This document shows positions 2,602-54,906 of a stretch of DNA of 64,000 bases, piece after piece; within the stretch, counting starts at the first letter, position 1; every line of letters starts with the position of its first letter. Both the position numbers and the translations under genes were made by a program. The stretch covers positions 169,297 through 233,296 of the forward strand of contig CAZCCG010000002.1 of the NCBI GenBank assembly GCA_964497535.1. The letters run 5' to 3'. Under the pieces are notes generated by a model. That model saw only the letters and a program-made list of their open reading frames with translations, searched no databases and was not told the DNA's origin. The DNA is from an uncultured Gammaproteobacteria bacterium (GTDB lineage: Bacteria > Patescibacteriota > Microgenomatia > Levybacterales > UBA12049).

Positions 2602-3291
2602 TTATCGAAGTACTTCCCTAACTGTGGCTTGTGCAAGTATTTCCATTGTATCGTAGATCTGTATCTCTTCATGTTTTGGAACAATAAGTTGTAGATCTGT
2701 ACAAGCAAGAATTATCGTCTTGAGTCCTTGAGAAGAAAAACTTTCAATTATTTGCAATAGTTCTTCTTTATCTTTTTGAGTATGTTTGCTATGAACAAGA
2801 TGATTGATAATAGCAGTTACTCTTGACTGATCTTCTTCACCTGGAGTCTGGATGGTAATACCTTTTTCCGCAAGTCTTTGGTCATACAACTGTTTACGAA
2901 TGGTTGCTGAAGTTGCTAATATTCCAACGTCTGTTATTCTTTTCTCTTCCAAAAACCGTACTGTTTCATCAATTATACTTAAAACTGGGATTTTAACAGC
3001 CTTTATTATATCTTTAATAAAAATATGGACAGAATTACAGGGTATTACAATAAAATCTGCTCCCCCATCTTCTAGGCGTTTGGCTGCATCCAAAAGATAA
3101 GGAAGATATTTTTCTTCACCCTCAGCTTTTGCAATGAAGTCTTCTTCTATTTTATAAGGAAGCGGAACATTCCAAATAAGCATAGGCGGTCTTGTTTCTT
3201 TATTTTTCTCAAAAGTTGAAAATACTACTTCCAGGTAAAAGTTAGCAGTGGTCTGCGGACCGAGTCCTCCAATAACACCAACAGTTTTCAT
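2602..3291 (-). CDS. Aspartate/glutamate racemase family protein (aspartate racemase-like)
   Basis: N-terminus MKTVGVIGGLGPQTTANFY typical of Asp/Glu racemases; ~230 aa. Confidence 0.8.
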   Translation of the reverse strand: MKTVGVIGGLGPQTTANFYLEVVFSTFEKNKETRPPMLIWNVPLPYKIEEDFIAKAEGEEKYLPYLLDAAKRLEDGGADFIVIPCNSVHIFIKDIIKAVKIPVLSIIDETVRFLEEKRITDVGILATSATIRKQLYDQRLAEKGITIQTPGEEDQSRVTAIINHLVHSKHTQKDKEELLQIIESFSSQGLKTIILACTDLQLIVPKHEEIQIYDTMEILAQATVREVLR

Positions 3292-4901: not shown

Positions 4902-4960
4902 AGTGCCTCATTTTTTTTGATCTCTTGCATACTATGCTTTCTTCATTTATACTGCTTCTA

Positions 4961-5080
4961 ACATCAAGAGTGATAGATGAAATGCTATCCGGCAACCGAA
5001 GTATTTACGGTGCCAGTTCCAAATAATTGGAGATGCGGCGAGAGCAAAATACCAAAACCTCTCGCATGAGAGGTTTTTTT
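4961..5080 (+). promoter_or_regulatory. SAM-I clan (S-box-like) riboswitch leader of metK with terminator/SD-sequestering expression platform
   Basis: Conserved S-box strings ATCAAGAG (P1 5'), GATGAAA…CCGGCAACC, GGTGCCAgTTCC and AGATG (P1 3', pairs with CATC). It is followed by hairpin CCTCTC-gcat-GAGAGG (5058–5073) plus T7 (5074–5080) abutting the metK ATG. An upstream CGAGAG could form an antiterminator. Confidence 0.7.
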
Positions 5081-18444: not shown

Positions 18445-19473
18445 TTATCGAATAAACGCCAGATACAGACCTACAACAGCGAAGACAAAGCCCAAAAGCC
18501 ATGCCCTCATGACGATTTTTGGCTCTTCCCACCCTTTCATCTGAAGAAATAAATGAAGAGGCGCAACCGGCATAACTTTTTTCTTGAGGAATTTTTTTCC
18601 CAGTAACTGAATCAATGAAGAACCTACTTCCAAAACAAAAACTCCTCCAATAACTCCCAGAGCCGGAATCTTACCAGTCAAAAGTCCAATAACTGCTAGG
18701 CAAGCCCCCAATGCCATTGAACCAGTATCTCCCAACCATAGCCTGGCCCGATAAATATTGAAATAAAGAAATGCACCAATAGATCCCATCAGAATTGCAA
18801 TAAATATACCCAATCCCTGATCAAGTTGTGTGGAAACCTGAGAGATTGCCAGAAATGCTACCAAACAAATAAGAAAAAGTCCTGATGCAAGTCCATCAAG
18901 TCCATCTGTAATATTAAATGCGTTAGTGAATGAAACAATAATAAAGGCGGCAAAAACTGCAAAAATAAGAGGAGGAATTGGTATTGTTCCGATTCCATGA
19001 ATATACAAGAAGTTAAATCCTAATTGGGTCGCCAAAACCATTCCAATAATGCCTGCCAATATCCATTGAATGAAAAATTTGTGGCGAAATCTGAGTCCGA
19101 AAAATGCTTTGGCATGAGCGGTACCGGGCTTCACCAATTTTTTCAAATCATCGTAGAACCCTAACAGTCCAAAACCAATAAAAGAAAAAATTAATACAAA
19201 TGTCTCCCACGGTTTTACTTCTATTCCAAACAATCCATATGCCCAAAAAGTCAATAAAGAAGTTACCAACACAACGAGAATTCCTCCGCCAAAGGGAGTA
19301 CCAACTTTCCAAGAGTTAAATTTATCAAATATAGGGGTACGTTTGTCAAATATGTCTTTGGTTACCTGTTTTTGACGCTTCAATTTCACCTTATACAGGA
19401 AATCTATAAAAGGAATGAGTAGGATAAAACTGATAAAAAATGATAAGATCGAAAGCCCCAAAAGCTGAGACAT
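18445..19473 (-). CDS. mraY: Phospho-N-acetylmuramoyl-pentapeptide transferase MraY
   Basis: Polytopic protein with DDLKKL and NAFNITDGLDGLA motifs. Confidence 0.92.
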   Translation of the reverse strand: MSQLLGLSILSFFISFILLIPFIDFLYKVKLKRQKQVTKDIFDKRTPIFDKFNSWKVGTPFGGGILVVLVTSLLTFWAYGLFGIEVKPWETFVLIFSFIGFGLLGFYDDLKKLVKPGTAHAKAFFGLRFRHKFFIQWILAGIIGMVLATQLGFNFLYIHGIGTIPIPPLIFAVFAAFIIVSFTNAFNITDGLDGLASGLFLICLVAFLAISQVSTQLDQGLGIFIAILMGSIGAFLYFNIYRARLWLGDTGSMALGACLAVIGLLTGKIPALGVIGGVFVLEVGSSLIQLLGKKFLKKKVMPVAPLHLFLQMKGWEEPKIVMRAWLLGFVFAVVGLYLAFIR

Positions 19474-19554: not shown

Positions 19555-20604
19555 TCAGTAGCCTCGTTTTATACGCCAAATGGTTTCAATGGTGTAATTC
19601 TTCCAATAGAGGGGAGATGTCGGTAAATCCTGAGCATGAATTAAATTTACTCGTCTTCCGCCAAATCCTGTTTTAAATAACGTTAAACCGTGCCATGGAT
19701 GCTTTGGTTTTTCAGGCGGAACTACCCCCCAAAAATTATAGATAGTTTTCCCCTGCCTTTTTGCTTCTTTGATTGCTTCCCATTGAATTAGGTATGCCCC
19801 GGGAATATCTTTATATTCATCGGCTGAAGCACCATGATGATAGACTGCCTGATTTCCATAGTAAATGACTAAAGCACCGGCAATAATGTTAGAATTATGC
19901 CGGGCTACAAATAACTTTGCCATTTTATTGTTGACGAAAATATCAAATTCTTCTCTCAAACCCCGATGAGGAATAAAATTATGACGCTTGGAAGTCCGCT
20001 CATACAGATCCATAAACTCTTCAAAATCTTTGGCTGTCCCGGCACTGCTTATCTCAACACCCAGGTTTTGTGCACGTCTTACCAGATACCTCGTTGTTTT
20101 TCGCATTCCTGCCATAATTTCTTGCTCATCCTGACTCAGATCCAATACCCAGGCATTTTCAGCATCCATATTGTGAACTGGTGCATTTCTAAATCCTCGT
20201 TTTACAAAAAAGGGCATATCTGCATGTTCTTCTTCAATAACAGGAGATATACGAATGAATTCAATCTTTTTATGCCGACATCGATTTTTAAGGTCTTCCA
20301 AAAGTACATCAAAACTGTTTTCAAAATGGGTTAACACTGGTCCGTGACGAAGATGGAAATAATGAGCACGTTTTGCTTTTATCTCAACGAGTTGGGCAAT
20401 ACCTACCAGTGTATTTTCATTAAAGATTCCAATACGATTAACCTCATGACCTACTCTTTTTTGAACCTCTCCCCATTTCCACGACTGAAAAAAAGGAGTA
20501 TAAGCGATGTTACTCCTCAACAAAAATTGTTCCCAAATGGTTTCATTTGATATATCGCGAACTTTTAGCATATGACTGTAATAATGATACAATTTTTTTG
20601 ACAT
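19555..20604 (-). CDS. FemAB-family peptidoglycan interpeptide-bridge aminoacyltransferase (FemX-like)
   Basis: FemAB-type N-terminus (FFQSWKWGEVQK), ~350 aa, acyltransferase fold pattern. Confidence 0.7.
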   Translation of the reverse strand: MSKKLYHYYSHMLKVRDISNETIWEQFLLRSNIAYTPFFQSWKWGEVQKRVGHEVNRIGIFNENTLVGIAQLVEIKAKRAHYFHLRHGPVLTHFENSFDVLLEDLKNRCRHKKIEFIRISPVIEEEHADMPFFVKRGFRNAPVHNMDAENAWVLDLSQDEQEIMAGMRKTTRYLVRRAQNLGVEISSAGTAKDFEEFMDLYERTSKRHNFIPHRGLREEFDIFVNNKMAKLFVARHNSNIIAGALVIYYGNQAVYHHGASADEYKDIPGAYLIQWEAIKEAKRQGKTIYNFWGVVPPEKPKHPWHGLTLFKTGFGGRRVNLIHAQDLPTSPLYWKNYTIETIWRIKRGY

Positions 20605-21793
20605 CCTGTGTGGACATTCGGGGATAAGTAGGAAGATTAACGATAGTTACAGCAAGATGCCTTGCTTGAGGTGTCAAAGCCGGATAAAAATGAATTTTTT
20701 CAAATTGTACCCCTTTGGGATCAATAATATTGGCATACCACGTACCCAAATATATATTATTTTTTTTGAAAAGCTCCAATAGATCCTCCCGATGATGACA
20801 CAGGATAGGAAATCTCAAGTAAGGTATCTCTTGAGTAGATGGTAATTCAAATGAAGAACCGGCAAGTTCCTTTTGGTATTGAGTGGAGATTTGAATTCTT
20901 TTTTTATTATATTCAGCAATTTTGCGTAATTGAGACAGAGCAAGGATACACAAAGCATTCGGCATTTTTCTCACAAATAGCTCACTTCGATTTGAGCGTT
21001 TTTCACCTATAGTTACCGGCATCGAGAGCAAATGCAGACGTTGTAATACTACCAGTATTACTTTGCCCAACGATAAAACCGTATAGAAGGGTAAAATAAT
21101 GCCAAAAGCAAGTGGATGCAGAAGCTGTTGAAAAATCCAAAAAAATCCCGGGTATTCTTGTTTTTTCTGAAATTGTCGAAGCGTATTCCCCAATGTTTTA
21201 TCATTTGTAATTGCCATTCCTCCAAATACACTGGAAAAAGCCTTATCTCTCCCAAAACTAAAAAAAGCTGCATCTCCAAACGTTCCTAATTTTTTACCAT
21301 CATATGTTCCCCCTACAGTATGCGCACAATCTTCAATAATAAGCAGGTTATGTTTCTTGGCAATTTTTTTGATCTGATCCATTTGGGAGGGAATTCCAAA
21401 GGTATGCTGTACCAAAATTGCTTTTGTCTTTGATGTAATGTTTTTTTCAATAGTATCGGGATTGATTGTCCCATCAAAAAGGACATCTACATATACCGGC
21501 TTTGCGCCTGCCCAAATGATCGCATTTGGCACGGCAACACAAGTAAATGCTTGCAACAACACTTCGTCTTTCTCTCCAATTTCCATTGCTTTTAATAAAC
21601 TATAAAAAGCAGACCGACCGCTATTAAATGATATTGCATATGACATGGAGAAATAGTTACGAAACCACTGTTCAAGTTTGCCTATAGAATCACCTGAAAA
21701 ATAATTCCAGGGACGGAGAATAGCTCCGAATGTTACTGCTATATCATCAGGTTGTGTGTTGGGGGATAAACCAGGAGCTATAGGAAATGCCAT
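20543..21793 (-). CDS. DegT/DnrJ/EryC1/StrS-family PLP-dependent sugar aminotransferase
   Basis: AFTCVAVPNAIIWAGAKPVYVDV and SFGRDKAFSS (PLP-lysine region) typical of the DegT family. Confidence 0.7.
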   Translation of the reverse strand: MAFPIAPGLSPNTQPDDIAVTFGAILRPWNYFSGDSIGKLEQWFRNYFSMSYAISFNSGRSAFYSLLKAMEIGEKDEVLLQAFTCVAVPNAIIWAGAKPVYVDVLFDGTINPDTIEKNITSKTKAILVQHTFGIPSQMDQIKKIAKKHNLLIIEDCAHTVGGTYDGKKLGTFGDAAFFSFGRDKAFSSVFGGMAITNDKTLGNTLRQFQKKQEYPGFFWIFQQLLHPLAFGIILPFYTVLSLGKVILVVLQRLHLLSMPVTIGEKRSNRSELFVRKMPNALCILALSQLRKIAEYNKKRIQISTQYQKELAGSSFELPSTQEIPYLRFPILCHHREDLLELFKKNNIYLGTWYANIIDPKGVQFEKIHFYPALTPQARHLAVTIVNLPTYPRMSTQDVKKIVSLLQSYAKSSRYIK

Positions 21794-21795
21794 AG

Positions 21796-23433
21796 TTATG
21801 CTTTCCTCACTTTCGTCACAATAACGCGGGGAATACCTTTTCCCATCATCACACTAATATCACCTTTTTTTGTATTGTTTACAACAAAATCAGTAATCTC
21901 CTCTATTGTTCCCGTTTTCACTTTACATTCCCCTTTTCCATCAGTAATTCCCTGAGTAATTTCTTTGTAAAAGTTTTTATTGACGAGAAAGAGATAATCG
22001 CATATAACAGAGATTGCTTTTGCAACTCTATAGTGTTCTTCTTTTCCTTTTTTCCCAAGTTCAATCATTGGTTCCAATATGAAAATTCTCTTGCCTTTAT
22101 ATTGCTTTATATACTCAAGCGTTGCAATCACACTATCAGGATTTGCATTAAATGTATTATCTAAAATATGGGATCCGTTTGAAAGTTCACTTCGAACCAT
22201 CGTATGAGGCAGCGGCGTTAGCTTGGATACGGCTGTTTTTATTTCCATATCGGACATTCCCAAATAGTCAGCTAGATAAATAGCGGGAAGAATATTTTCA
22301 ACCATATGGAGCCCAATCAATGATGTTTTTAAATGCAGTATTTTTTTTCTCAACTGCACATCAAAGTGAGTTCCATCCTCCTGGCCAGAGATATTATAGG
22401 CAACAATGTCCCCCAATTTCCCTACATTTGTTAATACTGTCTTTTTTGCCGATGATATAACTCTCCGATAGAGGACTTTTTTCTTTGTTGTATTTTTGTA
22501 TAGTTGAAAAACACGTTCGTTATTTCCGTTAAAAAGTGCCAAACCGTTTCTAGGAAGCGATTCAATTAATTCATATTTGGTTTTTTCTATATTTTCAATA
22601 CTTCCAAACAATGATAAATGTTGGCCTGCTATTGCTGTAAGTACACCGATTTTAGGACGGGCAATTGCACACAGCTCCGCGATTTCTCCTTTTTTATACG
22701 CTCCCATTTCTGCCACAAATATCTGAGTATTATTTTTTAATCCTTTCAAAATAGTATATGCTACCCCGATTGGAGTATTATCGGAATACTTTGTTTTTAA
22801 TACCTCGAATTTATGGGAGAGAACCTGGGCAATAAATTCCTTGGTAGAACTTTTTCCATAGCTGCCGGTAACTCCAATTACTAACAACTTTTCACTTTTT
22901 AAAATTTTTTTGGTTGCCCGCTCAATCTGGTAATCCTTGTAAAGCACCGTCGGCAAGGATACCGCAAAAACAACACATCCAACAACAAAAGGCAAAAGAA
23001 TATCCAAAATCATTAACCATACAAATGGATCTGTAGTAAGAGGAATGAGAAACAATGTAGTATAAATGTAAATTACTATCCCAATTAAAAGAAGCGCTTT
23101 TGTAGTAAATTTCGGACGCCGGAATGTATGAGTTAACAGTTCGTGGATAACCGCAACTCCTTCAATGAGTAATACAAGAGTAACAACTATTTGATAGAGT
23201 ACGAGAAAAAGTGGGTTATATACTGCAAATGCAAATCCTAATATCAGAATCCATTTGAAAATCGCATAAAATGAAAAAAGAATACTCTTACCACTGTGCG
23301 TTTCTGAAAGCTCTGCAAATAGCCGATCATACCGGTATTCCCGCCGTTGCCATAAAGACACCCAAAAAAAGGTGTTGCGTACTACCCATAAGAGAAAACT
23401 GACTGCGGCAATATAATATAAAACAGTAATCAT
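21796..23433 (-). CDS. murF: Mur ligase family protein (MurF-like D-Ala-D-Ala adding enzyme) with ~170-aa N-terminal polytopic membrane domain
   Basis: C-terminal two-thirds has the Mur ligase P-loop VIGVTGSYGKSSTKEF; the N-terminal ~170 aa contain 4–5 hydrophobic helices. Confidence 0.7.
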   Translation of the reverse strand: MITVLYYIAAVSFLLWVVRNTFFWVSLWQRREYRYDRLFAELSETHSGKSILFSFYAIFKWILILGFAFAVYNPLFLVLYQIVVTLVLLIEGVAVIHELLTHTFRRPKFTTKALLLIGIVIYIYTTLFLIPLTTDPFVWLMILDILLPFVVGCVVFAVSLPTVLYKDYQIERATKKILKSEKLLVIGVTGSYGKSSTKEFIAQVLSHKFEVLKTKYSDNTPIGVAYTILKGLKNNTQIFVAEMGAYKKGEIAELCAIARPKIGVLTAIAGQHLSLFGSIENIEKTKYELIESLPRNGLALFNGNNERVFQLYKNTTKKKVLYRRVISSAKKTVLTNVGKLGDIVAYNISGQEDGTHFDVQLRKKILHLKTSLIGLHMVENILPAIYLADYLGMSDMEIKTAVSKLTPLPHTMVRSELSNGSHILDNTFNANPDSVIATLEYIKQYKGKRIFILEPMIELGKKGKEEHYRVAKAISVICDYLFLVNKNFYKEITQGITDGKGECKVKTGTIEEITDFVVNNTKKGDISVMMGKGIPRVIVTKVRKA

Positions 23434-31707: not shown

Positions 31708-32919
31708 TTACTGAGAAATGTTACTCAGTGCTTCTTGTACTGCCTGGTGTTCGCTATAGGGAAGTTCTTTTCCATTATAATTCATTGACTTTTCATGCCC
31801 TTTTCCAAGGAGCAAAACAATGTCTCCTTTTTTTGCTAATTTGGTAATGATAAAGTTAATTGCTTCTGTTCTGTTTGGAATTTTAAATAATGTTTTATTC
31901 TTAATTCTTGATTCATAATTCTTAATTCCTGATTGAATCTCATTGATAATCTTCATCGGGTCCTCCCGTCTTGGATCCTCATCTGTCAAAACAATAGTGT
32001 CGGCAATCCTACCAGCAATTTCTCCCATCATAGGACGTTTCAATACATCTCTTTCTGAAGCACTTCCTAACATTACAATGATTTTTCCATCTTTTTTTAT
32101 TTGCGCTTTTGCTGCTTCTAAAATTCCTTGCACAGCATCGGGCTTATGGGCAAAATCAATAATAACTCGGAAATCTTTTCCGGTAGGGACTTCCTCAAAC
32201 CGCCCGGCAAGGTTAGTAACATTTTCAAGCGCATGTTTTATTGTTTTTTCCGGCACACCCAGAATCGTACCGACGGCGGCGGCTGCTAATGCATCCAATA
32301 AATTAAAATCTCCGGGTAGCTTTATATGGAGATTTAGTTTTTTTTGCGTAATATCACCCTCATTTAAGCCAAAGGTAATTGCCTTTTTCTGTACATCGTC
32401 AAACCCTACCGCTTCTTTCAGTTCATCCTTGATTCCCTTGAAGGGAAGGACTACTTTTTTTGCGTTATGAAGGAGAATAAATTTTGCTTTTGCGTAATTT
32501 TCAAACGTTTTATGGTAATCCAAATGTTCATGGGCAAGAGTTGTTAATACACCGATTGAAAAAGGAATAAATGCCGCCCTATTTTGATGCAATGCGTGAG
32601 ATGACACTTCCAGAACAAAATATCTATCACCCTGATCCACTGCTTGACGTAAATATTTGGGAAGTGTCTGAGGATCAGGAGTTGTTACATGAAATCCGGT
32701 ATCATAATCGATACCCCCGACAACTGCTTTGATAGACGAAAGAAGAGAAACCTTATATCCTGCAGCTTTTAGGAGTTCATATACCATATGGGTTGTAGTG
32801 GTTTTACCGCTCGTACCGGTAATTCCAATCACAGTAAGCTGTTTTCCGGGAAAACGATAGTAAAGATGAGCGAGAAAAGCAGTCGCAAGATGATATAAAT
32901 TTTTAAAGTCTTGCCACAT
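31708..32919 (-). CDS. murE: Mur ligase family protein, MurE-like (short, lacks canonical N-terminal domain); could alternatively be murD
   Basis: P-loop GITGTSGKTTTTHMV, C-terminal GKGHE motif as in MurE/MurF; contains a 21-nt in-frame tandem duplication at 31898–31939. Confidence 0.65.
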   Translation of the reverse strand: MWQDFKNLYHLATAFLAHLYYRFPGKQLTVIGITGTSGKTTTTHMVYELLKAAGYKVSLLSSIKAVVGGIDYDTGFHVTTPDPQTLPKYLRQAVDQGDRYFVLEVSSHALHQNRAAFIPFSIGVLTTLAHEHLDYHKTFENYAKAKFILLHNAKKVVLPFKGIKDELKEAVGFDDVQKKAITFGLNEGDITQKKLNLHIKLPGDFNLLDALAAAAVGTILGVPEKTIKHALENVTNLAGRFEEVPTGKDFRVIIDFAHKPDAVQGILEAAKAQIKKDGKIIVMLGSASERDVLKRPMMGEIAGRIADTIVLTDEDPRREDPMKIINEIQSGIKNYESRIKNKTLFKIPNRTEAINFIITKLAKKGDIVLLLGKGHEKSMNYNGKELPYSEHQAVQEALSNISQ

Positions 32920-33028
32920 AATGGTAATGTATCAAATTGTATTTTTTATATTATAGCTGAAATACCGACACCGTGCAGACTTGGAAAACCCTTCGTAATA
33001 CCAAAAAATCACCGTCGGAAAATAAAGC

Positions 33029-33060
33029 GGGCAAGGAACAGCCTACACTATTCCTTGCCC
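33029..33060 (-). terminator. Hairpin (10-bp stem GGGCAAGGAA/TTCCTTGCCC, 12-nt loop) downstream of island gene, weak U-run
   Basis: Read directly; lies 31 nt downstream of the minus-strand stop at 33092. Confidence 0.4.
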
Positions 33061-33091
33061 AGTGAGAAGATTGAAACCACTCAGTGGCTGA

Positions 33092-33781
33092 TCACCCCTT
33101 GACAGAATCTTTGTTGGAAGACAACAAACCTACTCTAGTCATCTCGGTATGGAACCGCATCCATCCATCATCAGTGTTAAGCCTGAGCTCTTCATACAAC
33201 TCTCTTAGCCCACCAGATATAGTTTCACGATCCAGGCTTCCTTCTCGTAGCGCTATCAACCGGTCGACACCGGTCAGAAGCTGTTGTTTGAAAATAGGGT
33301 GCGTTTCACTTCCAAGAGTTGCTTTCTTCTCAAGTATCTTGAGTAGAAAACGCTTCACCGAAGGTGAAACTCCCAATTGTCCTCCCCGTATTCGTGGCTT
33401 TCTCGGGTTAGTTCTAGTTCCCCTTTTGCGAACGTCAACGGGCTGGGGACGTGGACTGGAAATGGCCTGTTCTTGAAACGCCCGCCGGGCAGCCTGGTGT
33501 TCCTCAGGCAAAAGCTGATCGTCAAGAGCATGCAAAACCCCTGATGCCTGAATTGTTACAACTGATAATCGTACTTCTACAGAAGTGATTACTGACAAAG
33601 CCAGATATAGGGTTTCCCTTATCTCAGTATCACTAAATATCCTTTCTTTGTATCGTCTCAGCTGCATTAGTGTAGGATTTAGATTGTTGGCTACCTGAGT
33701 AAGGTGGTCAGCGTGCTCAAGCAGATCTTTTTGGAAAGCTTCAAGTTGTCTCATTGCCTCATCCACCAACGTTACAGACAT
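33092..33781 (-). CDS. Hypothetical protein (229 aa), GC-rich island
   Basis: High-GC ORF, Arg/Pro-rich central linker; no homology recognised. Confidence 0.5.
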   Translation of the reverse strand: MSVTLVDEAMRQLEAFQKDLLEHADHLTQVANNLNPTLMQLRRYKERIFSDTEIRETLYLALSVITSVEVRLSVVTIQASGVLHALDDQLLPEEHQAARRAFQEQAISSPRPQPVDVRKRGTRTNPRKPRIRGGQLGVSPSVKRFLLKILEKKATLGSETHPIFKQQLLTGVDRLIALREGSLDRETISGGLRELYEELRLNTDDGWMRFHTEMTRVGLLSSNKDSVKG

Positions 33782-34030
33782 GAGTACCTCCTTCTGTCAT
33801 ACCCTCCACGTTTTATCAGAAAGTGTGTTGGTTTTCTCCTCTCACTTGTAAATGTACCCTAAACCACAAAGCCAAAACACAAGGTTTTGGCAGCAGTTAT
33901 ATGTGAAAATCTCTCACTGGTATCAATCCGTATTGATGCCAGAATCAAGATTGTGAGAGAGGGTCTTGATAGATATCTTCCTCAAACGTCAAGCCGCATA
34001 TATGGCTTGTGTGTGGAAAGTATCTTGGGT

Positions 34031-34063
34031 GGGTTGGGGCCGAGTCTAACTCGGCCCCAACCC
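34031..34063 (-). terminator. Very stable GC hairpin (14-bp perfect stem GGGTTGGGGCCGAG/CTCGGCCCCAACCC, loop TCTAA) without U-tract
   Basis: Read directly; 16 nt downstream of the minus-strand stop at 34079; resembles U-tract-less terminators of high-GC bacteria. Confidence 0.5.
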
Positions 34064-34078
34064 GGATATGTAATGCAG

Positions 34079-34825
34079 TCAGGACGCTTTGTTCCTGCCG
34101 CTGGGCAAAACGACACCCCACTGCCTGAGCAGTTTGATGAAGTTGCCCTCGCCCATGCTGCGCACTACTTCCCGCAGAGAAGCAGCATCCCGGCTAACCG
34201 GTGCATCTGAGGTCAAGCAGACTAAGGCACTGCGTAAATCCCGGCAGATGACGCTCGCCTGCTTATCAGCGATATCGTCACCAACCACGATATCCACCAG
34301 ACCGTACTGACCTTTAACAGCCAACCGCACGATATGGGTACGCCACCCCTGACCGTACATCAGCTCCATTACCGCCTCCATGCTCTTGGGAAGCGGTTTG
34401 TTACCCCGATGCATCAGGATCTTTCGAAGGATGGAGCGAGCCAACAGCGGAATCCCCTTCGTCCGTTGCGGGATAGCAGGAGTTACTGCTGGCGCGGCCA
34501 CCGGTGGGGCAGGGGGAGCCGGCGGAGAGACAGGCGGTGTCACGGAACGACCTCCGCTCTGCCTGGCTCGGGAAACTGCATGATGAGGCGCAGACGCGGT
34601 CCCCAGATCATACTGGATCTCCGATAGTGCCCGCTGCGCTTCACTGATTGCTGCAGAAAGTTGACGTGCACTACGGCGACCCTTCTGAGGTCGCTCAACA
34701 AGTGCGAGAACCTTCTGTGCCGCCACATGGTAGCGTTGACTCTCTGCCTGAAGCTGAGCCGCGATACTACGCAGCGGCCTGAAAGTCTTCTCCTCAAACA
34801 ACGATACATCTGGCTTGGCCATCAC
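34079..34825 (-). CDS. Hypothetical protein with Pro/Ala-rich linker (PPAPPAPPVAAPAVTP) and C-terminal ~110-aa domain, GC-rich island
   Basis: High-GC ORF; no homology recognised. Confidence 0.5.
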   Translation of the reverse strand: MMAKPDVSLFEEKTFRPLRSIAAQLQAESQRYHVAAQKVLALVERPQKGRRSARQLSAAISEAQRALSEIQYDLGTASAPHHAVSRARQSGGRSVTPPVSPPAPPAPPVAAPAVTPAIPQRTKGIPLLARSILRKILMHRGNKPLPKSMEAVMELMYGQGWRTHIVRLAVKGQYGLVDIVVGDDIADKQASVICRDLRSALVCLTSDAPVSRDAASLREVVRSMGEGNFIKLLRQWGVVLPSGRNKAS

Positions 34826-34916
34826 TTCTTCCTTCCACTATTCGTAGGAGACATGGCGCGATGCCATATCTCATGGAGGTTTGGTAACACTCCCCATCCA
34901 CATCAGAGGATCCTTT

Positions 34917-36872
34917 CTAGCGCTTGCGGCCGCTCGGCCGACTGACGCGCTGCTTCGACCTCCCATACAGGAGGAAGGCATTGCGATGATGCTCAGCTGG
35001 ATCCCGGGTCGGCAAGGTGACCTCAGTCACCGCCATAGCGGCACTGAGCATAACCAGGTCCCGCTGCTGTTCGATATCTCGAGCAGCGATAGCAGCAGCC
35101 AAAGCTTCTGCTTCCTGGTTTACGATTACCCAACCCAGATCCATTTCATCGACGCTATACGGCTTGTCAGGATCATCCAAGGGGGAAATCCGAACCCGTA
35201 TAGAAGGATGTAGGTGAACCTCCTCAGGAGAAGGAGTCCTCTTGGGTAAACCTGTCTCGATGTAGAAGGTGGCTCTGTGGCCAGGATCCAGAGGAGACAG
35301 GTAGAAGGTGATACTGTTGCGGCCGCTCACCTTAAAGGGTGGCGGGACCGTAACTGAAACCACATATTTCCCATGCGGCTTCTTCCCGTAGGTGATGCGT
35401 CCTCCTTCCTGGGTTACCCTGACAGGTTCCCCTTCCAGGAAGATACGCACACCCATGACGGGTTGACCCCACTCATCAATCGCCCTGATGATCACTCGAT
35501 CTGACAGGGGATCAATTGGTGGGTCTACGATAACTCCTTTCTCTTTCCTCCGGCGAGTCTCTTTCCGAGTCTCACCGGGACCGGGGACCAGGAGGGCATC
35601 TCTAAAGATGTCCATTTCTCCCATGGCTTCGGTAATCGCATTCCCCACGTCTTCGCCGACCTTGTGGATCTGCTCGTCGTTTTGTCGGCGGCGAATCTCC
35701 TCAGAGGCCTTTTTGATCTCCGGCTCGAGCTTCTTCAGCTCATCTACCAGAAGATCAAGAATCTCAGACGGCTGGGGAGCACTCTTGCGAGAGTTCCATG
35801 GAAAGACAGTGTCAGGCAAGTCGGGCGCGCTGACAAACCCGTTCAACTCAGTCCATGGGGGACTATTGAATTGAGGCAGACTTGTCAAGTCGTTCACCCG
35901 GGACCCGGCCCGACGCAGGTCAAGCTGATGTTGCCCGCGCTTTACTTCAACCTCCAGATAGAGATCCACCTCGAAGGTAATATCAGTTCCATACAGACGA
36001 AGTGTCCGATGAGGAATGATATTCACACCCCGATACTTGGTAGCCTCTACCGGGATGATGCGTCCGGTCTTGGTCTTACGACCTTCCTCGGACACTCGAT
36101 CCACGATGACAAGCCGCAGCCGGTCAATCCGGATATCTTCGCTGAAGCGGCTGGAGAATGCGTCCCTGAGCAACCACGGCCGCAGGGCAGCTTCTACCCG
36201 ATCTTTGAACTCAACAACTTCTACTTGAGTCCCGGATCGAAGTTCTTTACCGGTTTCCGGATCCCTCAGGACTACATCCACCTCTTCAATTGTATATTTG
36301 CGGTCGTTGACTGCTAACATCTCTGCAGTTGGCGCTACGAGAAGACAGGTAGGGACCTCCCAGGGATGGAACTTCCGACCCCAGAATTCCTCTGCCATGT
36401 CAACTGTCGCCCTCGTGTACCATACAGCCCGGTTCCCTATGGAAGTGAATCCTAGGATACCCAAGCCCTTGGTTCCTCGTACCCGCTTACGCGGCTTATG
36501 CCGCTTAAATGAGTATGCGGCACTCTGCATCATCATCTTAAAGGACTTCCAGGAGAGCTCGTGCTTGATCTCATCAGCCAGACTGAGGCTGTGGGCGGAA
36601 GGGACACCTTTTTTGATGTCCTCCAGAAGCATATCGAACAGAAGGTTATCGTCAGGCATGAGCGACGGCACCAGGCCATGCCCATTGCCTACGACGATGA
36701 GCTTACCTGGTTCTGTGATCACCCAAACGCGGTCGGCACCGGCATCGATTTCATTCTCAACCAGTTCCGCCGCGGCATCAATCGGCGAATCGTACAGTGC
36801 GCCGTGATGCAACATGGAGGCGCCGGGATTGATTTCCGCCGTCCCCTCATAGCGTTGGTAGCGTTGGTTCAT
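34917..36872 (-). CDS. GHKL-superfamily ATPase (MutL/MORC-like HATPase_c at extreme N-terminus) with C-terminal carboxypeptidase-regulatory-like beta-sandwich region
   Basis: N-box AAAELVENEIDAGA (ExxxNxxDAGA, as in MutL VKELVENSLDAGA), G1 VVGNGHGL, G2-like GTKGLGILGFTS; C-terminal IFLEGEPVRVTQEGGRITYGKKPHGKYVVSV pattern. Confidence 0.65.
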   Translation of the reverse strand: MNQRYQRYEGTAEINPGASMLHHGALYDSPIDAAAELVENEIDAGADRVWVITEPGKLIVVGNGHGLVPSLMPDDNLLFDMLLEDIKKGVPSAHSLSLADEIKHELSWKSFKMMMQSAAYSFKRHKPRKRVRGTKGLGILGFTSIGNRAVWYTRATVDMAEEFWGRKFHPWEVPTCLLVAPTAEMLAVNDRKYTIEEVDVVLRDPETGKELRSGTQVEVVEFKDRVEAALRPWLLRDAFSSRFSEDIRIDRLRLVIVDRVSEEGRKTKTGRIIPVEATKYRGVNIIPHRTLRLYGTDITFEVDLYLEVEVKRGQHQLDLRRAGSRVNDLTSLPQFNSPPWTELNGFVSAPDLPDTVFPWNSRKSAPQPSEILDLLVDELKKLEPEIKKASEEIRRRQNDEQIHKVGEDVGNAITEAMGEMDIFRDALLVPGPGETRKETRRRKEKGVIVDPPIDPLSDRVIIRAIDEWGQPVMGVRIFLEGEPVRVTQEGGRITYGKKPHGKYVVSVTVPPPFKVSGRNSITFYLSPLDPGHRATFYIETGLPKRTPSPEEVHLHPSIRVRISPLDDPDKPYSVDEMDLGWVIVNQEAEALAAAIAARDIEQQRDLVMLSAAMAVTEVTLPTRDPAEHHRNAFLLYGRSKQRVSRPSGRKR

Positions 36873-38638
36873 TAAAACCCTACCTCCTTCATGACTCTGA
36901 TGCGGTCTTCTCGAACCACTCCCTGTTTTACCAGGATTTCCAGAAGCTGGATAACGCCGTTCATAGCGCTTCCATGCTCCCTTCGGAGTTGATCTCGTGT
37001 AGCAGGATCATCAGCCTCCATATACTCTCGCAAGAGTGCTTCAAGACTGCTTAACGTTACCGCAACATCGCTTCCCTCTGTATGAGCCTTCCTCCTTCTG
37101 AGGCGCTCCTCAAATGCTCTTCCTTCGAGCATCTGTTGCAGACTTGTTACCGCGTTGTGTATCTGACCCAAACGCTCTGCCTGCTCGTGCAGTAACTGCT
37201 CGCGCATCTGTGCAAGATCTTGTTGGATTTGGGCTCGAATGGCTTCGTTATCTGCTGCTCGTTTTCCTCCCATAGCTAAAACTACCACCTCTGTTAAGGT
37301 TCTTGATATCTCAGCACCAATTTGCTGAGATAGTGCATGGACGAGGTTATCGATATAACCTCCTACCAAACCCCCTACAGAAGAGGATAACGATGGTACA
37401 GATGGTTCTAGTACAACCGCCTCTTCCTCCGATGGTGGCGGGAGTCGGTCTTCAGACGGTTCTTCCTCTTCGCCACTCTCGTCTCCAAGAGACGCGGGTG
37501 CAGAATCTACGTCCTCCCCATCCTCCGGGTTCTCCGACTTTTTCTCTAGCCACTCCTGATATTCTTGCTCCGACCAGGCTCGCTTCACTTCGCGAAAACC
37601 TTTTCCGTGTGCCACCCAGATAGGGGGCAACGTACAGGGATCCGCAAGTGGTAACCGGCTCAGCCGGTGGATGTTGGCGTAGTGCTCTGTGTTGAGTACA
37701 TCTTCGCCGTGGATGATCTTGTGCCATGTCCCCAACGGTATACCAGCTTCGTGTGCAAAAACCGTCAGTGACGTACCACGATTGGCAGGAATCCACTCCC
37801 GCAAATCGTGCATCAGGTCCTGGGCAAATGTCGGTGGAGGCGGTTGCTCTTGTAAAGCCAGCCACTCCTCCAATCGTTGTTCTGTCCACGCCCGATGAAT
37901 CAGGATGTGTTTCCTGTTATCCCGAGGACCAACTTGTGAAGGTCGGCCAGGGATAATCGTCGGCCGGGATTGTGGCAACCTCGTGAGGCGGTATATACGA
38001 GCATAGTACTCGTAGTCCTCCGCTTCAACGATAGACTCGCCGTAAACAACCCGCTTGAGCACATTCCAGGGTACTTCCAGCTCAGCAGACAACCTCTTGT
38101 TATCGTATCCGTGCTCACCCATCCAGGCGAGAATCGCCGTGGAAAGAGCTGCACGGAACTGCTGCGGAGTCAGCTCTTCCGATGAAGAACCACTCCTTGC
38201 AGCTGCAACTGCGGACGCTTGGTCCATGTCCACCTCCTCTTCAGTTCCTCCCTGTTGTGTGCTTCCTAAAACAGGACCTGCAGACGCAGCTTCCTGCTTA
38301 CGATTCTTCTCTAGCCACTCCTGATATTCTTGCTCCGACCAGGCACGGACTTTCCCCGACAGTATTCCACCTCTTCGCACATGTGAATATGCAATCGGTA
38401 GCCTACTCGGGTCAGCCTCTTGTATACCAAAGTCGTGATGAAGCCTGGCATAGACATCTGTTGCATCCAGGATTGCCCCTGCGGTAAGCAGCAGCTTTCC
38501 TTCGGCTTCAGATACCCCAAGCTCCTCGAAGAAATCTGGCTCAGATCGATGCTCTTTCTCAAGCATCTCCAGTACAGCAAAGGCAACCTTTTCTGCCCAC
38601 TGCTGTTCCTCGGTGGTAAACGCCAAGTTGACGTTCAA
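36872..38638 (-). CDS. Hypothetical protein with three tandem ~120-aa repeats (each ending R-A-W-[ST]-E-Q-x-x-x-E-W-L) and C-terminal coiled coil; translationally coupled to the GHKL ATPase gene
   Basis: Protein-level repeats RAWSEQEYQEWLEK (x2) and RAWTEQRLEEWLALQ; 37-nt perfect DNA repeat at 37543–37579 and 38308–38344 (765 nt apart, in frame); its stop overlaps the downstream start at 36872. Confidence 0.55.
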   Translation of the reverse strand: MNVNLAFTTEEQQWAEKVAFAVLEMLEKEHRSEPDFFEELGVSEAEGKLLLTAGAILDATDVYARLHHDFGIQEADPSRLPIAYSHVRRGGILSGKVRAWSEQEYQEWLEKNRKQEAASAGPVLGSTQQGGTEEEVDMDQASAVAAARSGSSSEELTPQQFRAALSTAILAWMGEHGYDNKRLSAELEVPWNVLKRVVYGESIVEAEDYEYYARIYRLTRLPQSRPTIIPGRPSQVGPRDNRKHILIHRAWTEQRLEEWLALQEQPPPPTFAQDLMHDLREWIPANRGTSLTVFAHEAGIPLGTWHKIIHGEDVLNTEHYANIHRLSRLPLADPCTLPPIWVAHGKGFREVKRAWSEQEYQEWLEKKSENPEDGEDVDSAPASLGDESGEEEEPSEDRLPPPSEEEAVVLEPSVPSLSSSVGGLVGGYIDNLVHALSQQIGAEISRTLTEVVVLAMGGKRAADNEAIRAQIQQDLAQMREQLLHEQAERLGQIHNAVTSLQQMLEGRAFEERLRRRKAHTEGSDVAVTLSSLEALLREYMEADDPATRDQLRREHGSAMNGVIQLLEILVKQGVVREDRIRVMKEVGF

Positions 38639-38862
38639 CGCAACCTCCTTCTTTTCTGTTTCCAGTTATCGTATAAGGTATTACATATACCCTCTCTCAC
38701 TTTTCAATGTGCTTTTTTATTCCATGGTAAAACCATTTGGGCACTCTATGCCCGCAGGTCAAAACATGGATAAGAATTATACTATAAATTGCATCTTGTA
38801 GTAAAGTCAGCAAGAGGCTAATCGATTCCCGGGAATATTCAAGAAGAGATCTTATAATACAA

Positions 38863-47280: not shown

Positions 47281-47946
47281 TCATAATGCTCCTTTTCCGC
47301 TAATCATAGTCCATGGAGTTTTAAGAATGATTCCTAAGTCATAAAAAACAGACCTTTTTTGGACATACTGAGCATCCATTTTTATTCTTTTGTCAAAGTT
47401 AATGGCGCTTCGTCCGCTTACCTGCCAATATCCGGTAATGCCAGGTTTTACCGATAACACAACTTTAACCGAATCTCGAGTGTAAGGATATTTTTTTTGT
47501 TGATCCCGAAGTTCGTCAGGATAATATGCCCGAGGTCCTACCAAACTCATGTCACCCCGAAGTACATTGAAAAACTGAGGAACCTCATCAAGTGAATGTC
47601 TTCGTATAAAGTGCCCAATTCGAGTTATTCGGGGATCATCTCTCAGTTTATAACTGTCCCGTTTGTATTCTGAAAAAAGTTCTGCATAGTTAGGATTCTG
47701 TCGCAAAATATCATGAGCGTTTTGGATCATGGAACGAAATTTGAACATTTTAAAAAGTTTTCCGTTCTTTCCAACGCGCTCAGGAATATCGGCAAAAACA
47801 GGCCCCGGAGAATCTAATTTAATAGCAATACAAATAATAATAATTACTGGAAGAAAGAGGAGAATCAATGCCATGGAAAATCCGATGTCTAGCGCCCGCT
47901 TGGCCATTTCATACAGTCTACTTTTTCTAATCTCAATATATGGCAT
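47281..47946 (-). CDS. Polyprenyl-phosphate sugar phosphotransferase (bacterial sugar transferase / WbaP C-domain family)
   Basis: Hallmark PGITGYWQVSGRS and DLxxDxxY motifs; single N-terminal TM. Confidence 0.85.
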   Translation of the reverse strand: MPYIEIRKSRLYEMAKRALDIGFSMALILLFLPVIIIICIAIKLDSPGPVFADIPERVGKNGKLFKMFKFRSMIQNAHDILRQNPNYAELFSEYKRDSYKLRDDPRITRIGHFIRRHSLDEVPQFFNVLRGDMSLVGPRAYYPDELRDQQKKYPYTRDSVKVVLSVKPGITGYWQVSGRSAINFDKRIKMDAQYVQKRSVFYDLGIILKTPWTMISGKGAL

Positions 47947-47949
47947 ATA

Positions 47950-50180: not shown

Positions 50181-50249
50181 ATGTTATGGAATAGTTCAGC
50201 TAATTCTAACGTATCGGCAGAGGCAGAAGCAAGAATCTATAGAAGTATA

Positions 50250-51368: not shown

Positions 51369-52261
51369 TGATATTTCCTCCTACTGAGAATATATAAAAG
51401 ATTAATACCATTTGTAACCATTGAAGTAACAAAACCGGGATACACATTTTTATAATGTTTTTTATAGAAAATCCTCATAGCATCAAATCGGGCATCGGTA
51501 GTACGGAGTTTTGTTTCTTTATCCGCAGATGTTACATCTTTGGAAACTTGCTTGATCCCGCCTGATACTCCTTTATAATGGAGCAGTGAAACGGTTGGAA
51601 CATAATATATCTTCCACCCTTTTTTTTTCAGCATATAACAAAAATCCAAATCTTCGCCGTAGAAGAAATAATCTTCATCCCACCAGCCGATCTGCTCCCC
51701 AGCTTCCCAGCGAACGATCATAAATGCACCTGCCAATGCATCAATTTCATGAATTTTTCCTAAATCTTTCCACCCCAAATTATACCCGTTCAAAAATAAG
51801 CTGTTTGGAAATACTTTGGAGATACCACTGAAATGGCAAAAAGAATTCCAGGGAGTAGGAAATCCGCGATGAGATGCATCATCAATTTGACCATCTGGCA
51901 ATTCTACTTTACACGTCGCAGCACCAGCATCAGCATGATTATCCATGAATCGAATCATCTCCTCAAGTGTTTTTGCTCGTAAAATCGCGTCTGAATTTAG
52001 AAAGAGCATATATCTTCCTTTTGCAACTGCAACTCCAATATTATTGGCTTTTGAAAATCCTAGATTTTCATTATTTACGATGGTGTGAACCTGAGGGAAA
52101 CTCTTTCTTACCATCTTAATAGAATCATCTTTTGAATTGTTATCAACTACAATAACCTCATAATGTAATTCCTTAGATACCCTGGTAAAAACTGCAGTCA
52201 GACATTCTTTCAGAAAATCCTGCGTATTGTATGAAACAATAATAATTGAAACATCTATCAT
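51365..52261 (-). CDS. Glycosyltransferase family 2 (GT-A)
   Basis: VSIIIVSYNTQDFLKECL, DxD region; 298 aa. Confidence 0.85.
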   Translation of the reverse strand: MIDVSIIIVSYNTQDFLKECLTAVFTRVSKELHYEVIVVDNNSKDDSIKMVRKSFPQVHTIVNNENLGFSKANNIGVAVAKGRYMLFLNSDAILRAKTLEEMIRFMDNHADAGAATCKVELPDGQIDDASHRGFPTPWNSFCHFSGISKVFPNSLFLNGYNLGWKDLGKIHEIDALAGAFMIVRWEAGEQIGWWDEDYFFYGEDLDFCYMLKKKGWKIYYVPTVSLLHYKGVSGGIKQVSKDVTSADKETKLRTTDARFDAMRIFYKKHYKNVYPGFVTSMVTNGINLLYILSRRKYQ

Positions 52262-54905: not shown

Positions 54906-54906
54906 G

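What the first reader, a model, noticed from the sequence alone, without database searches (positions are those of the whole stretch)
21796..23433. MurF-like Mur ligase with an N-terminal ~170-aa multi-helix membrane domain
Mur ligases are classically soluble cytoplasmic enzymes. Here 4–5 hydrophobic helices precede the ATP-binding P-loop, which would tether the last cytoplasmic step of lipid II precursor synthesis to the membrane next to MraY. The gene sits in the dcw cluster between an alpha/beta hydrolase and a DegT aminotransferase.
Basis: seen in the sequence. Interest (0 to 1): 0.55.

Follow-up and report, generated by a model that had tools for sequence, protein, structure and literature searches.

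The report
Membrane-embedded MurF cell-wall ligase
This is a real, widely conserved gene of the tiny "candidate phyla radiation" bacteria in which the normally soluble cell-wall enzyme MurF has swapped its nucleotide-binding front end for a five-helix membrane domain, so the last soluble step of cell-wall precursor synthesis probably happens on the membrane.

Summary
ORF 21796-23433 (-) encodes 545 aa: five hydrophobic helices (aa 1-160, N-out/C-in), then MurF-type central and C-terminal ligase domains with all catalytic motifs intact.

It is not a mis-called start or a frameshift. The architecture recurs in 706 50%-identity clusters and at least 442 GTDB species across Patescibacteria. AlphaFold models it at pLDDT 93.

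- The membrane domain replaces MurF's uridine-binding domain 1 rather than adding to it.
- It carries an invariant cytoplasmic loop, WQxKEYRxDR...ET, which decays together with the catalytic residues (rho 0.81).
- Catalytically dead relatives, either full-length or lacking the C domain, occupy the same slot before mraY.
- The neighbours form a conserved module, hydrolase / TM-MurF / DegT / FemAB (52 of 80 loci), with two single-case gene fusions.

Best reading: this is the lineage's MurF, working at the membrane face, with the loop standing in for domain 1.

Not excluded: a lipid-linked substrate, or a different added residue.

I could not test whether the genome holds a second murF, or any ddl. 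I found no paper describing this. I rate it a new variant of a known kind.

The parts
21796..23433 (-). Complete TM-MurF gene, 545 aa
   Evidence: ORF. Pfam and NCBIfam. An identical protein is seen on 4 contigs from 3 sequencing runs. AlphaFold pLDDT 93.3, pTM 0.89.
22909..23433 (-). N-terminal membrane domain (aa 1-175): five TM helices plus the start of the connecting helix. It replaces MurF domain 1.
23353..23430 (-). TM helix 1 (aa 2-27), with conserved R19 and N20 at its cytoplasmic end
23290..23352 (-). Invariant cytoplasmic loop motif, aa 28-48: W28 Q29 x (K/R) E32 Y33 R34 x D36 R37 ... E44 T45 x (Q) G48
   Evidence: W28, Q29, E32, Y33, R34, D36, R37 and T45 are invariant in 117 homologues. 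The strict motif is present in all 120 best hits. Its conservation correlates with that of the catalytic residues, Spearman 0.81.
23221..23286 (-). TM helix 2 (aa 50-71), with conserved S54 and K60 in its cytoplasmic half
23143..23211 (-). TM helix 3 (aa 75-97)
23041..23103 (-). TM helix 4 (aa 111-131), preceded by conserved P107, T110 and K112
22954..23028 (-). TM helix 5 (aa 136-160), with W139 (invariant even in the dead relatives) and D144
22897..22953 (-). Connecting helix (aa 161-179), continuous with TM5. It contains P161, T162, D167 and A173. Sequence homology to canonical MurF begins here.
   Evidence: AlphaFold gives a single helix over aa 136-179. The phmmer alignment to 1GG4 starts at query 158, matching chain 73.
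22273..22872 (-). Mur ligase central (ATP-binding) domain, aa 188-387. It has the P-loop TGSYGKSS (aa 189-196, window 22846-22869), E242, Q271-H272, and K286, which aligns with E. coli MurF K202.
   Evidence: Pfam PF08245, 2e-35. Residue-by-residue alignment to 1GG4. Invariant columns.
21835..22179 (-). Mur ligase C-terminal domain, aa 419-533, with LDNTFNANP (aa 424-432), PMIELG (aa 455-460) and H467
   Evidence: Pfam PF02875
23430..24149 (-). Alpha/beta hydrolase, first gene of the conserved module. Its stop overlaps the TM-MurF start.
   Evidence: Pfam. Immediately upstream in 61 of the 80 loci, 52 of them with DegT immediately downstream as well. Fused to TM-MurF in P0072.
20543..21793 (-). 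DegT/DnrJ/EryC1-family PLP enzyme with a hydrophobic insert of about 40 aa; third gene of the module
   Evidence: Pfam 2e-69. PDB relatives are nucleotide-sugar aminotransferases. Hydrophobic insert. Fused to TM-MurF in L075.
19555..20604 (-). FemAB-family (aminoacyl-tRNA-dependent) transferase, fourth gene of the module
   Evidence: Pfam FemAB 5e-38. Best solved relative is S. aureus lipid II:glycine glycyltransferase 6snr, 9e-15.
18445..19473 (-). MraY, the next pathway step, downstream in the same orientation
   Evidence: ORF. Pfam Glycos_transf_4 on the identical gene in L001. Directly follows TM-MurF in loci that lack the module.

Best explanation
The gene encodes a membrane-integral MurF.

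What is shown:
- A five-helix N-terminal membrane domain (N-terminus outside, C-terminus inside) is joined by one continuous helix to MurF-type central and C-terminal ligase domains.
- Those domains keep every catalytic motif.
- The membrane domain occupies the place of MurF's N-terminal domain, which canonically holds the uridine end of UDP-MurNAc-tripeptide.

What is inferred:
- The protein is this lineage's last stem-peptide ligase, adding D-Ala-D-Ala or its local equivalent with ATP.
- It works at the cytoplasmic face of the membrane.
- The invariant, charged and aromatic juxtamembrane loop (WQxKEYRxDR...ET), with other conserved cytoplasmic-face residues (R19, K60, K112, D167), substitutes for domain 1. 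It would hold the nucleotide-diphosphate end of the substrate or close the active site.
- The product is released next to MraY.
- The membrane scaffold probably has a second, non-catalytic role in the membrane machinery, because catalytically dead relatives are kept in the same genomic slot.
For: The gene is real and conserved:
- All 120 best relatives share the architecture.
- The membrane-domain profile finds 706 representatives of 50%-identity clusters; in the 150 listed it is always N-terminal, and every full-length one examined continues into a Mur-ligase-like part.
- 442 GTDB species genomes encode a relative, across Levyi-, Gottesman-, Pace-, Specht-, Nealson-, Staskawicz-, Peri- and Gracilibacteria, Minisyncoccales and bins labelled Saccharibacteria.

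MurF identity:
- NCBIfam murF scores 230 bits against 72 or less for the other Mur ligases.
- E. coli MurF 1GG4 matches at 3e-32, with the P-loop, E158, H188, K202, DDxYNAN and ELG...H equivalents all aligned.
- The top 10 Foldseek hits in the PDB are all MurF.

Domain replacement: alignments begin at MurF residue 73 and at profile position 69. The uridine-ribose pocket of MurF lies in the N-terminal domain (PMC11569785).

Structure: pLDDT 93.3 and pTM 0.89. TM5 runs on as helix 136-179 into the first ligase strand.

Topology: the positive-inside rule holds over 117 sequences.

Synteny:
- The murF slot lies before mraY here and in the Levyibacteriota loci.
- In L073 and L066 one cluster holds MurE, MurC and MurD (389 and 348 bits) plus this protein as the only MurF-like ligase.
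- In L064 the only other MurF-like gene has a broken P-loop and broken ELG and NAN motifs.

The loop is linked to catalysis. Among 91 full-length representatives, catalytic-residue identity correlates with loop identity at rho 0.81, against 0.27 for other conserved membrane positions. In 27 degenerate proteins the loop is 31% retained, while W139 and P161 are 100% retained.
Against: - No activity or substrate was tested.
- NCBIfam's murF cutoff is not reached (230 against 288.6), as expected without domain 1.
- The window covers only 64 kb of a contig of at least 310 kb, and murD, ddl and alr are not in it. A second, canonical murF elsewhere cannot be excluded.
- MurE of the same cluster also lacks domain 1 and has no replacement. 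A substitute for domain 1 may therefore not be needed, which weakens the proposed role of the loop.
- The correlation is not corrected for shared ancestry.
- I had no model coordinates, so the position of the loop relative to the active-site cleft was not measured.
- Dead relatives in the same slot show that the slot does not always hold an active MurF.
Confidence: 0.55

Rival explanations
1. It is a module-specific ligase rather than the housekeeping MurF. In this reading the protein works with the alpha/beta hydrolase, the DegT-like PLP enzyme and the FemAB-like transferase. It adds a different amino acid or peptide to a wall precursor or another envelope polymer. D-Ala-D-Ala addition, if present at all, would be done by another enzyme.
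For: - The order hydrolase / TM-Mur / DegT / FemAB is immediate in 52 of 80 loci. It also occurs away from mraY, between aaRS genes and ftsQ.
- Single-ORF fusions exist with the hydrolase (P0072) and with DegT (L075).
- No ddl or alr was seen in the window, nor among the 10 commonest unassigned ORF clusters of the 80 loci submitted to Pfam.
- The score is below the murF equivalog cutoffs.
Against: - Ten Levyibacteriota loci have the active protein directly before mraY with no module.
- In L073 and L066 it is the only MurF-like ligase beside MurC, MurD and MurE.
- The MurF-type motifs of the C-terminal domain (DDTFNANP, MIELG...H) are invariant.
- The only second MurF-like gene found is degenerate.
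Confidence: 0.2
2. It acts on a lipid-linked substrate. In this reading the enzyme lacks the uridine pocket and sits in the bilayer. It would complete the stem peptide on undecaprenyl-pyrophosphoryl-MurNAc-tripeptide (a lipid I or lipid II form) after MraY. The membrane domain would bind the polyprenyl tail and the basic juxtamembrane residues would bind the pyrophosphate.
For: - Domain 1 is lost.
- There are five TM helices with a conserved, basic cytoplasmic-face surface: R19, R34, R37, K60 and K112.
- The loop co-degenerates with the catalytic residues.
- There is a precedent: MurT, a Mur-family protein without domain 1, acts on lipid II (own knowledge).
- The neighbouring FemAB protein is closest to a lipid II glycyltransferase.
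- The DegT neighbour has a hydrophobic insert.
Against: - There is no direct evidence.
- The soluble MurE of the same cluster also lacks domain 1 and must still act before MraY.
- The gene order keeps the ligase upstream of mraY.
- MurT and the Fem enzymes need no TM helices to reach lipid II (own knowledge).
- The protein has no similarity to MurT beyond the shared fold. NF052464 does not appear among its hits.
Confidence: 0.13
3. It is a plain tether. In this view the helices only anchor an otherwise self-sufficient MurF near MraY and take no part in catalysis or substrate binding.
For: The position next to mraY and a cytoplasmic ligase with intact motifs. MurE shows that domain 1 can be lost without replacement.
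Against: - An anchor needs one helix and no sequence conservation. Here there are five helices with 15 invariant positions, eight of them in one cytoplasmic loop.
- That loop decays specifically when the catalytic residues decay, while the rest of the membrane domain does not.
- The inter-domain geometry is predicted as rigid, with pTM 0.89 and a continuous helix.
Confidence: 0.1
4. It is an annotation or assembly artefact: a separate small membrane gene run together with a truncated murF by a frameshift or a wrong start.
For: The GGAGG box lies 16 nt from the ATG, further than usual.
Against: - The same single ORF is found on 4 independent contigs and in hundreds of species.
- There is no in-frame Met between residues 141 and 243.
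- The full-length model is confident.
Confidence: 0.01

Closest known systems
Canonical MurF (UDP-MurNAc-tripeptide:D-Ala-D-Ala ligase; e.g. E. coli 1GG4, A. baumannii 4QF5, T. maritima 3ZL8)
   Same: The central ATP-binding and C-terminal domains are the same, with the P-loop, the Mg-binding Glu, the His, the Lys that aligns with E. coli MurF K202 (recalled as the carbamoylated Lys; own knowledge), DDxYNAN and ELG...H. It gives the best sequence, profile and fold matches. It occupies the dcw position before mraY.
   Different: It has no N-terminal uridine-binding domain. About 157 aa of five TM helices with their own invariant motif stand in its place. It is membrane-integral rather than soluble. 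It scores below the family cutoff.
MurT (lipid II isoglutaminyl synthase subunit, with GatD)
   Same: It is a Mur-family ligase that lacks domain 1 and works at the membrane stage (own knowledge).
   Different: MurT has no TM helices, carries a DUF1727-type C-terminal part and needs GatD. NF052464 does not match this protein. No GatD-like neighbour was seen.
PgsB/CapB (poly-gamma-glutamate synthetase, membrane-associated Mur-family amide ligase)
   Same: It is a Mur-type central domain working in a membrane complex (own knowledge).
   Different: There is no match to PgsB models among the NCBIfam hits. The substrate and genomic context differ, and PgsB lacks a MurF-type C-terminal domain.
Known MurF fusion proteins (MurE-MurF NF008896; MurF-alanine racemase NF008897)
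   Same: They show that MurF tolerates fusion partners from the same pathway. Both models match the ligase part here.
   Different: Those fusions keep domain 1 and are soluble. Here the partner is a membrane domain of no known family, and it replaces domain 1.
Domain-1-less MurE of the same cluster (window 31708-32919)
   Same: It shows the same lineage-specific loss of the uridine-binding domain in a stem-peptide ligase.
   Different: MurE has nothing in place of domain 1 and no hydrophobic segment.

Membership tests
MurF (TIGR01143 / EC 6.3.2.10) | Whole-protein score at or above the curated family cutoff | tested here: not met
   230.1 bits against a cutoff of 288.6. The equivalog models score 150 against 551 and 123 against 544. 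The shortfall is explained by the missing first 68 or so profile positions.
MurF (TIGR01143 / EC 6.3.2.10) | Closer to MurF than to MurC, MurD, MurE or Mpl | tested here: met
   murF scores 230 bits against murD 72, murC 67 and murE 64. PDB phmmer ranks seven distinct MurF sequences first. The Foldseek top 10 are all MurF.
MurF (TIGR01143 / EC 6.3.2.10) | N-terminal domain 1 that binds the uridine nucleotide of the substrate | tested here: not met
   No PF01225 hit. Alignments start at MurF residue 73 and at profile position 69. Residues 1-157 are TM helices.
MurF (TIGR01143 / EC 6.3.2.10) | Central domain catalytic set: P-loop GxxGK(S/T), Mg-binding Glu, His, and the Lys aligning with E. coli MurF K202 | tested here: met
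   G190, S191, G193, K194, E242, Q271, H272 and E288 are invariant, and K286 is at least 90% conserved, in 117 homologues. They align to E. coli TGSSGKT, E158, H188 and K202.
MurF (TIGR01143 / EC 6.3.2.10) | C-terminal domain with DDxYNANP and (M)xELG...H motifs | tested here: met
   LDNTFNANP at 424-432 and PMIELG at 455-460, plus H467. N429, P455, E458, L459, G460 and H467 are invariant.
MurF (TIGR01143 / EC 6.3.2.10) | Gene in the dcw cluster between murE and mraY, as the fourth Mur ligase | tested here: met
   Window order. L073 and L066 hold MurE, MurC, MurD and this protein in one cluster.
MurF (TIGR01143 / EC 6.3.2.10) | ATP-dependent addition of D-Ala-D-Ala to UDP-MurNAc-tripeptide | not testable with these tools
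   This needs a biochemical assay. ddl and alr were not found in the 64-kb window, and the whole genome was not available.
MurF (TIGR01143 / EC 6.3.2.10) | Soluble cytoplasmic protein | tested here: not met
   Five predicted TM helices, conserved in the family.
MurT (lipid II isoglutaminyl synthase) | Match to the MurT model, with a DUF1727-type C-terminal region and a GatD partner | tested here: not met
   NF052464 is absent from the hits at E<=0.01. The C-terminal domain is PF02875. Neither flanking gene is a glutaminase: they are an alpha/beta hydrolase and a DegT-family protein. GlmS, further upstream, does carry a glutamine-amidotransferase domain, but no GatD-type partner was seen.
PgsB/CapB poly-gamma-glutamate synthetase | Match to the PgsB family model and pgsC/pgsA neighbours | tested here: not met
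   No PgsB model appears among the 21 NCBIfam hits. The neighbours are peptidoglycan genes.

The most novel reading that the evidence does not exclude
In much of the candidate phyla radiation, stem-peptide completion is a membrane reaction. In this reading the domain-1-less, five-helix MurF recognises the pyrophosphate-lipid (or membrane-proximal) end of the precursor through its WQxKEYRxDR loop. It finishes the peptide on a lipid-linked intermediate after MraY, inside a membrane complex with the DegT-like and FemX-like proteins. Lineages with catalytically dead copies would keep the protein as a scaffold. That would reorder the textbook pathway of lipid II synthesis.
Probability: 0.13. Interest if true: 0.85.

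Novelty: new variant of a known kind. Interest (0 to 1): 0.62.

Why it matters
Mur ligases are the textbook example of soluble three-domain enzymes, and MurF is an antibiotic target whose inhibitors bind the uridine pocket of domain 1.

Here a large branch of bacteria (hundreds of species of Patescibacteria) has a MurF without that domain and embedded in the membrane. This raises several testable questions:
- How is the substrate recognised?
- Is the cytoplasmic and membrane division of peptidoglycan synthesis universal?
- How do ultra-small cells organise wall synthesis?

The dead copies kept before mraY, and the conserved hydrolase / DegT / FemAB partners, point to an undescribed membrane complex, and possibly to unusual stem-peptide chemistry in organisms whose walls have hardly been analysed.

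There is also a practical side for annotation. The membrane domain has no Pfam family, and the protein falls below the NCBIfam cutoffs, so it is variously named MurF, "Mur ligase family protein" or hypothetical.

Tried and rejected
- **Membrane domain alone, word-indexed search.** Searching aa 1-180 through the word-indexed protein database returned nothing, not even the query itself. I treated this as a limitation of the tool and replaced it with the exhaustive profile search.
- **Pfam on the membrane domain.** Only a chance-level TMEM43 hit, E 0.4.
- **Literature.** Five full-text searches on MurF or Mur ligase with transmembrane, Patescibacteria, CPR or dcw found nothing on a membrane MurF. 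The one dcw paper left CPR out.
- **Mis-called start or frameshift.** Rejected; see the observation check.
- **A second copy of the membrane domain or a further MurF in the window.** None found; only MurC and MurE are present.
- **Search for ddl in 80 related loci.** I clustered the unassigned ORFs. The commonest clusters were a HAD hydrolase, two aaRS, FtsQ, PMT_2 and MurI, and none was Ddl. This covers only about 10 kb either side of the gene.
- **PADLOC on the GC-rich island.** No hit.
- **Not possible with these tools.** I could not read whole genomes, obtain model coordinates to measure distances from the loop to the active site, or model a complex with MraY.
Full report
**The gene and its setting**

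ORF 21796..23433 (minus strand, ATG start, 545 aa) is present as described. The window (36-40% GC) carries a long minus-strand division and cell-wall cluster. The order is RsmH, FtsI, a GC-rich insert, MurE, PgeF-like, MurC, MurB, MurA, GlmU-N-like, GNAT, GlmS, alpha/beta hydrolase, the gene in question, DegT-like, FemAB-like, MraY, FtsW, MurG, FtsA, FtsZ. MurC, MurE and this protein are the only Mur ligases in the 64 kb, and it is the only carrier of its membrane domain. The closest named relatives are from Levybacteria/Levyibacteriota and other Patescibacteria. An identical protein occurs on four contigs from three sequencing runs.

Pfam places Mur_ligase_M at aa 188-387 and Mur_ligase_C at aa 419-533, and nothing before that. 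Hydropathy gives five helices within aa 2-160.

AlphaFold with 117 homologues gives pLDDT 93.3 and pTM 0.89. The helices are 2-30, 35-44, 46-52, 55-70, 74-101, 111-129 and one long helix 136-179. That last helix runs from the fifth membrane span straight into the first ligase strand.

Over the family, loops 1 and 3 and the segment after TM5 carry 5.2, 3.7 and 6.3 Lys+Arg, against 0.3 and 0.6 in loops 2 and 4. The N-terminus is therefore outside and the ligase is in the cytoplasm.

- The start overlaps the hydrolase stop.
- There is no Met between residues 141 and 243.
- All 120 best relatives have the same length and architecture, and 116 of 119 have 4-5 hydrophobic helices before a P-loop at about residue 187.
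- The membrane part is 45% identical between homologues, against 56% for the ligase part.

**It is a MurF derivative that has lost domain 1**

NCBIfam murF scores 230 bits, against 72 or less for murD, murC and murE. The match covers only profile positions 69-400 of 418 and so stays under the cutoff of 288.6. E. coli MurF (1GG4) aligns at 3e-32 from its residue 73 to query residue 158. The following all correspond: the P-loop, ELGA..GEI, HL..FGS, the Lys at E. coli position 202, DDSYNAN and ELG...H. The ten best Foldseek matches of the model in the PDB are MurF structures.

In canonical MurF the uridine-ribose pocket lies in the N-terminal domain (PMC11569785). That domain is absent here, so the membrane domain is a replacement and not an addition.

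**The membrane domain is a conserved, functional module of no known family**

In 117 homologues, W28, Q29, E32, Y33, R34, D36, R37, T45, P107 and W139 are invariant. F13, W16, R19, N20, W24, L27, K31, H41, E44, Q47, G48, S54, K60, T110, K112, D144, P161, T162, D167 and A173 are at least 90% conserved. Nearly all of these lie on the cytoplasmic side.

A profile of the domain, scored against 1.84 billion representatives, finds 706 proteins (325 at E<=1e-10). In the 150 listed the domain is always at the N-terminus, and every full-length one examined continues into a Mur-ligase-like region. A scan of one genome per GTDB species finds 442 relatives across many Patescibacteria lineages. A few record titles from other phyla look like placeholders or mis-binned contigs.

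**Three classes of relatives**

Column-wise inspection of the representatives shows three classes:
- Active proteins of 520-560 aa.
- Full-length proteins in which the P-loop and every catalytic motif are gone.
- Proteins of 370-408 aa with a degenerate central domain and no C-terminal domain.

The dead forms lie in the same syntenic slot as the window gene. P0151 sits between glmS and mraY-ftsW-murG-ftsA. P0155 sits directly before mraY. P0188 sits after murE-murC-murA-glmU-glmS.

Among 91 full-length representatives, identity at 14 catalytic positions correlates with identity at the 9 loop positions (Spearman 0.81, p 4e-22). The correlation with 7 other conserved membrane positions is only weak (0.27). 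In the 27 degenerate proteins the loop is 31% retained, the other membrane positions 63%, and W139 and P161 100%. This is not corrected for phylogeny.

I read this as follows. The loop works with the active site. The membrane scaffold has a further role that survives loss of catalysis.

**Context**

In 52 of 80 related loci the hydrolase is immediately upstream and the DegT-like gene immediately downstream, followed by the FemAB-like gene. Ten Levyibacteriota loci have the active gene directly between glmS, GNAT or glmU and mraY with no module.

In Parcubacteria-type loci the order is FtsI, a class II aaRS, SerRS, hydrolase, TM-MurF, DegT, FemAB, FtsQ.

Single-ORF fusions exist with the hydrolase (P0072, 738 aa) and with DegT (L075, 1073 aa). 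Each is one observation.

The DegT-like protein resembles nucleotide-sugar aminotransferases in its PLP domain and carries a hydrophobic insert. The FemAB-like protein is closest to S. aureus lipid II:glycine glycyltransferase.

In L073 and L066 one cluster holds MurE, MurC, MurD (389 and 348 bits) and this protein as the only MurF-like ligase. In L064 the only other MurF-like gene is a 351-aa soluble protein with a broken P-loop and broken C-domain motifs.

**Mechanism**

Best supported (0.55): this is the lineage's MurF, acting at the inner face of the membrane. The juxtamembrane loop stands in for domain 1, and the product goes on to MraY.

Shown:
- The architecture, topology and intact catalytic set.
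- MurF ancestry and loss of domain 1.
- Conservation and synteny.
- The loop's association with catalytic integrity.

Inferred:
- D-Ala-D-Ala specificity.
- The loop's role in substrate binding.
- Any contact with MraY.
- The scaffold role of the dead copies.

Rivals:
- A module-specific ligase with another specificity (0.20).
- A lipid-linked substrate (0.13).
- A passive tether (0.10).
- An artefact (0.01).

The main weaknesses are these. MurE in the same cluster also lacks domain 1 with nothing in its place. Whole genomes could not be searched for a second murF or for ddl and alr.

**Comparison and novelty**

The protein works like MurF and descends from MurF. It fails two defining features of the family, namely domain 1 and solubility, and it falls below the curated cutoff. 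It is not MurT or PgsB.

Five literature searches found no description of a membrane-integral MurF. Databases name it inconsistently.

I rate it a new variant of a known kind, with interest 0.62. The existence claim is very robust, and the biology it implies is unexpected and testable: membrane-stage completion of the stem peptide, a conserved partner module, and retained pseudo-enzymes.

Noticed in passing
window 31708-32919 (-): MurE is only 403 aa. It passes the NCBIfam murE cutoff (359 bits) but starts at about profile position 88, so it too lacks the N-terminal uridine-binding domain, and nothing replaces it. MurE is 379-419 aa in most related Levyibacteriota loci.
   Followed up: partly
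window about 33000-38700 (-): There is a 53-56% GC island in a genome of 36-40% GC, lying between ftsI and murE inside the dcw cluster. Its four ORFs (229, 248, 651 and 588 aa) have no Pfam, NCBIfam or PADLOC family apart from a weak HATPase_c_3 hit. It is probably foreign DNA of unknown function.
   Followed up: partly
L004:5567-6745, L005:3114-4721, L007:10001-11212: These are catalytically dead relatives of the TM-MurF, with the P-loop and all motifs lost. Some are full-length; others are about 400 aa with no C-terminal domain. They are kept as intact ORFs in the same slot before mraY in other Patescibacteria. It is unknown how those organisms complete the stem peptide.
   Followed up: partly
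window 20543-21793 (-): The DegT/DnrJ/EryC1-family PLP enzyme carries a hydrophobic insert of about 40 aa (aa 215-255, Kyte-Doolittle 2.28), seen in 38 of 61 orthologues. No sugar dehydratase partner is nearby, so its substrate is unclear.
   Followed up: partly
L075:10-3231; protein P0072: Two single-ORF fusions were seen: TM-MurF with the DegT-like protein (1073 aa), and the alpha/beta hydrolase with TM-MurF (738 aa). Each is a single observation.
   Followed up: no
L055, L059-L061, L064, L071, L072, L076, L077, L080, L086, L088: In Parcubacteria-type loci a class II aaRS (Lys/Asp/Asn type) and seryl-tRNA synthetase lie directly upstream of the hydrolase / TM-MurF / DegT / FemAB module. This is suggestive, because FemAB enzymes use aminoacyl-tRNA.
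   Followed up: no
L064:18246-19301: This is a soluble 351-aa MurF-like protein after ftsI. It has a one-residue deletion in the P-loop (TGKGKKTT) and has lost the NAN and ELG motifs. It looks like a second kind of degenerate MurF.
   Followed up: partly
window 4956-5061 (+): A SAM-I/IV riboswitch (44.2 bits, above the gathering score) lies upstream of the SAM synthetase gene. The mechanical ORF start at 5027 overlaps it, so the true metK start is probably later.
   Followed up: no
window 47281-60515 (-): This is a glycosyltransferase-rich region with GT1, GT2 and GT4 genes, a Bac_transf priming transferase, PMT_2, NTP_transferase and DUF4012. It also holds a 1009-aa ORF (54907-57936) with no Pfam hit; a 657-aa ORF just beyond the region (61277-63250) also has none.
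   Followed up: no
window 1-64000: No murD, ddl or alanine racemase was found in the window, although the rest of the precursor pathway is clustered here. A glutamate-racemase-type gene is at 2602-3291.
   Followed up: partly
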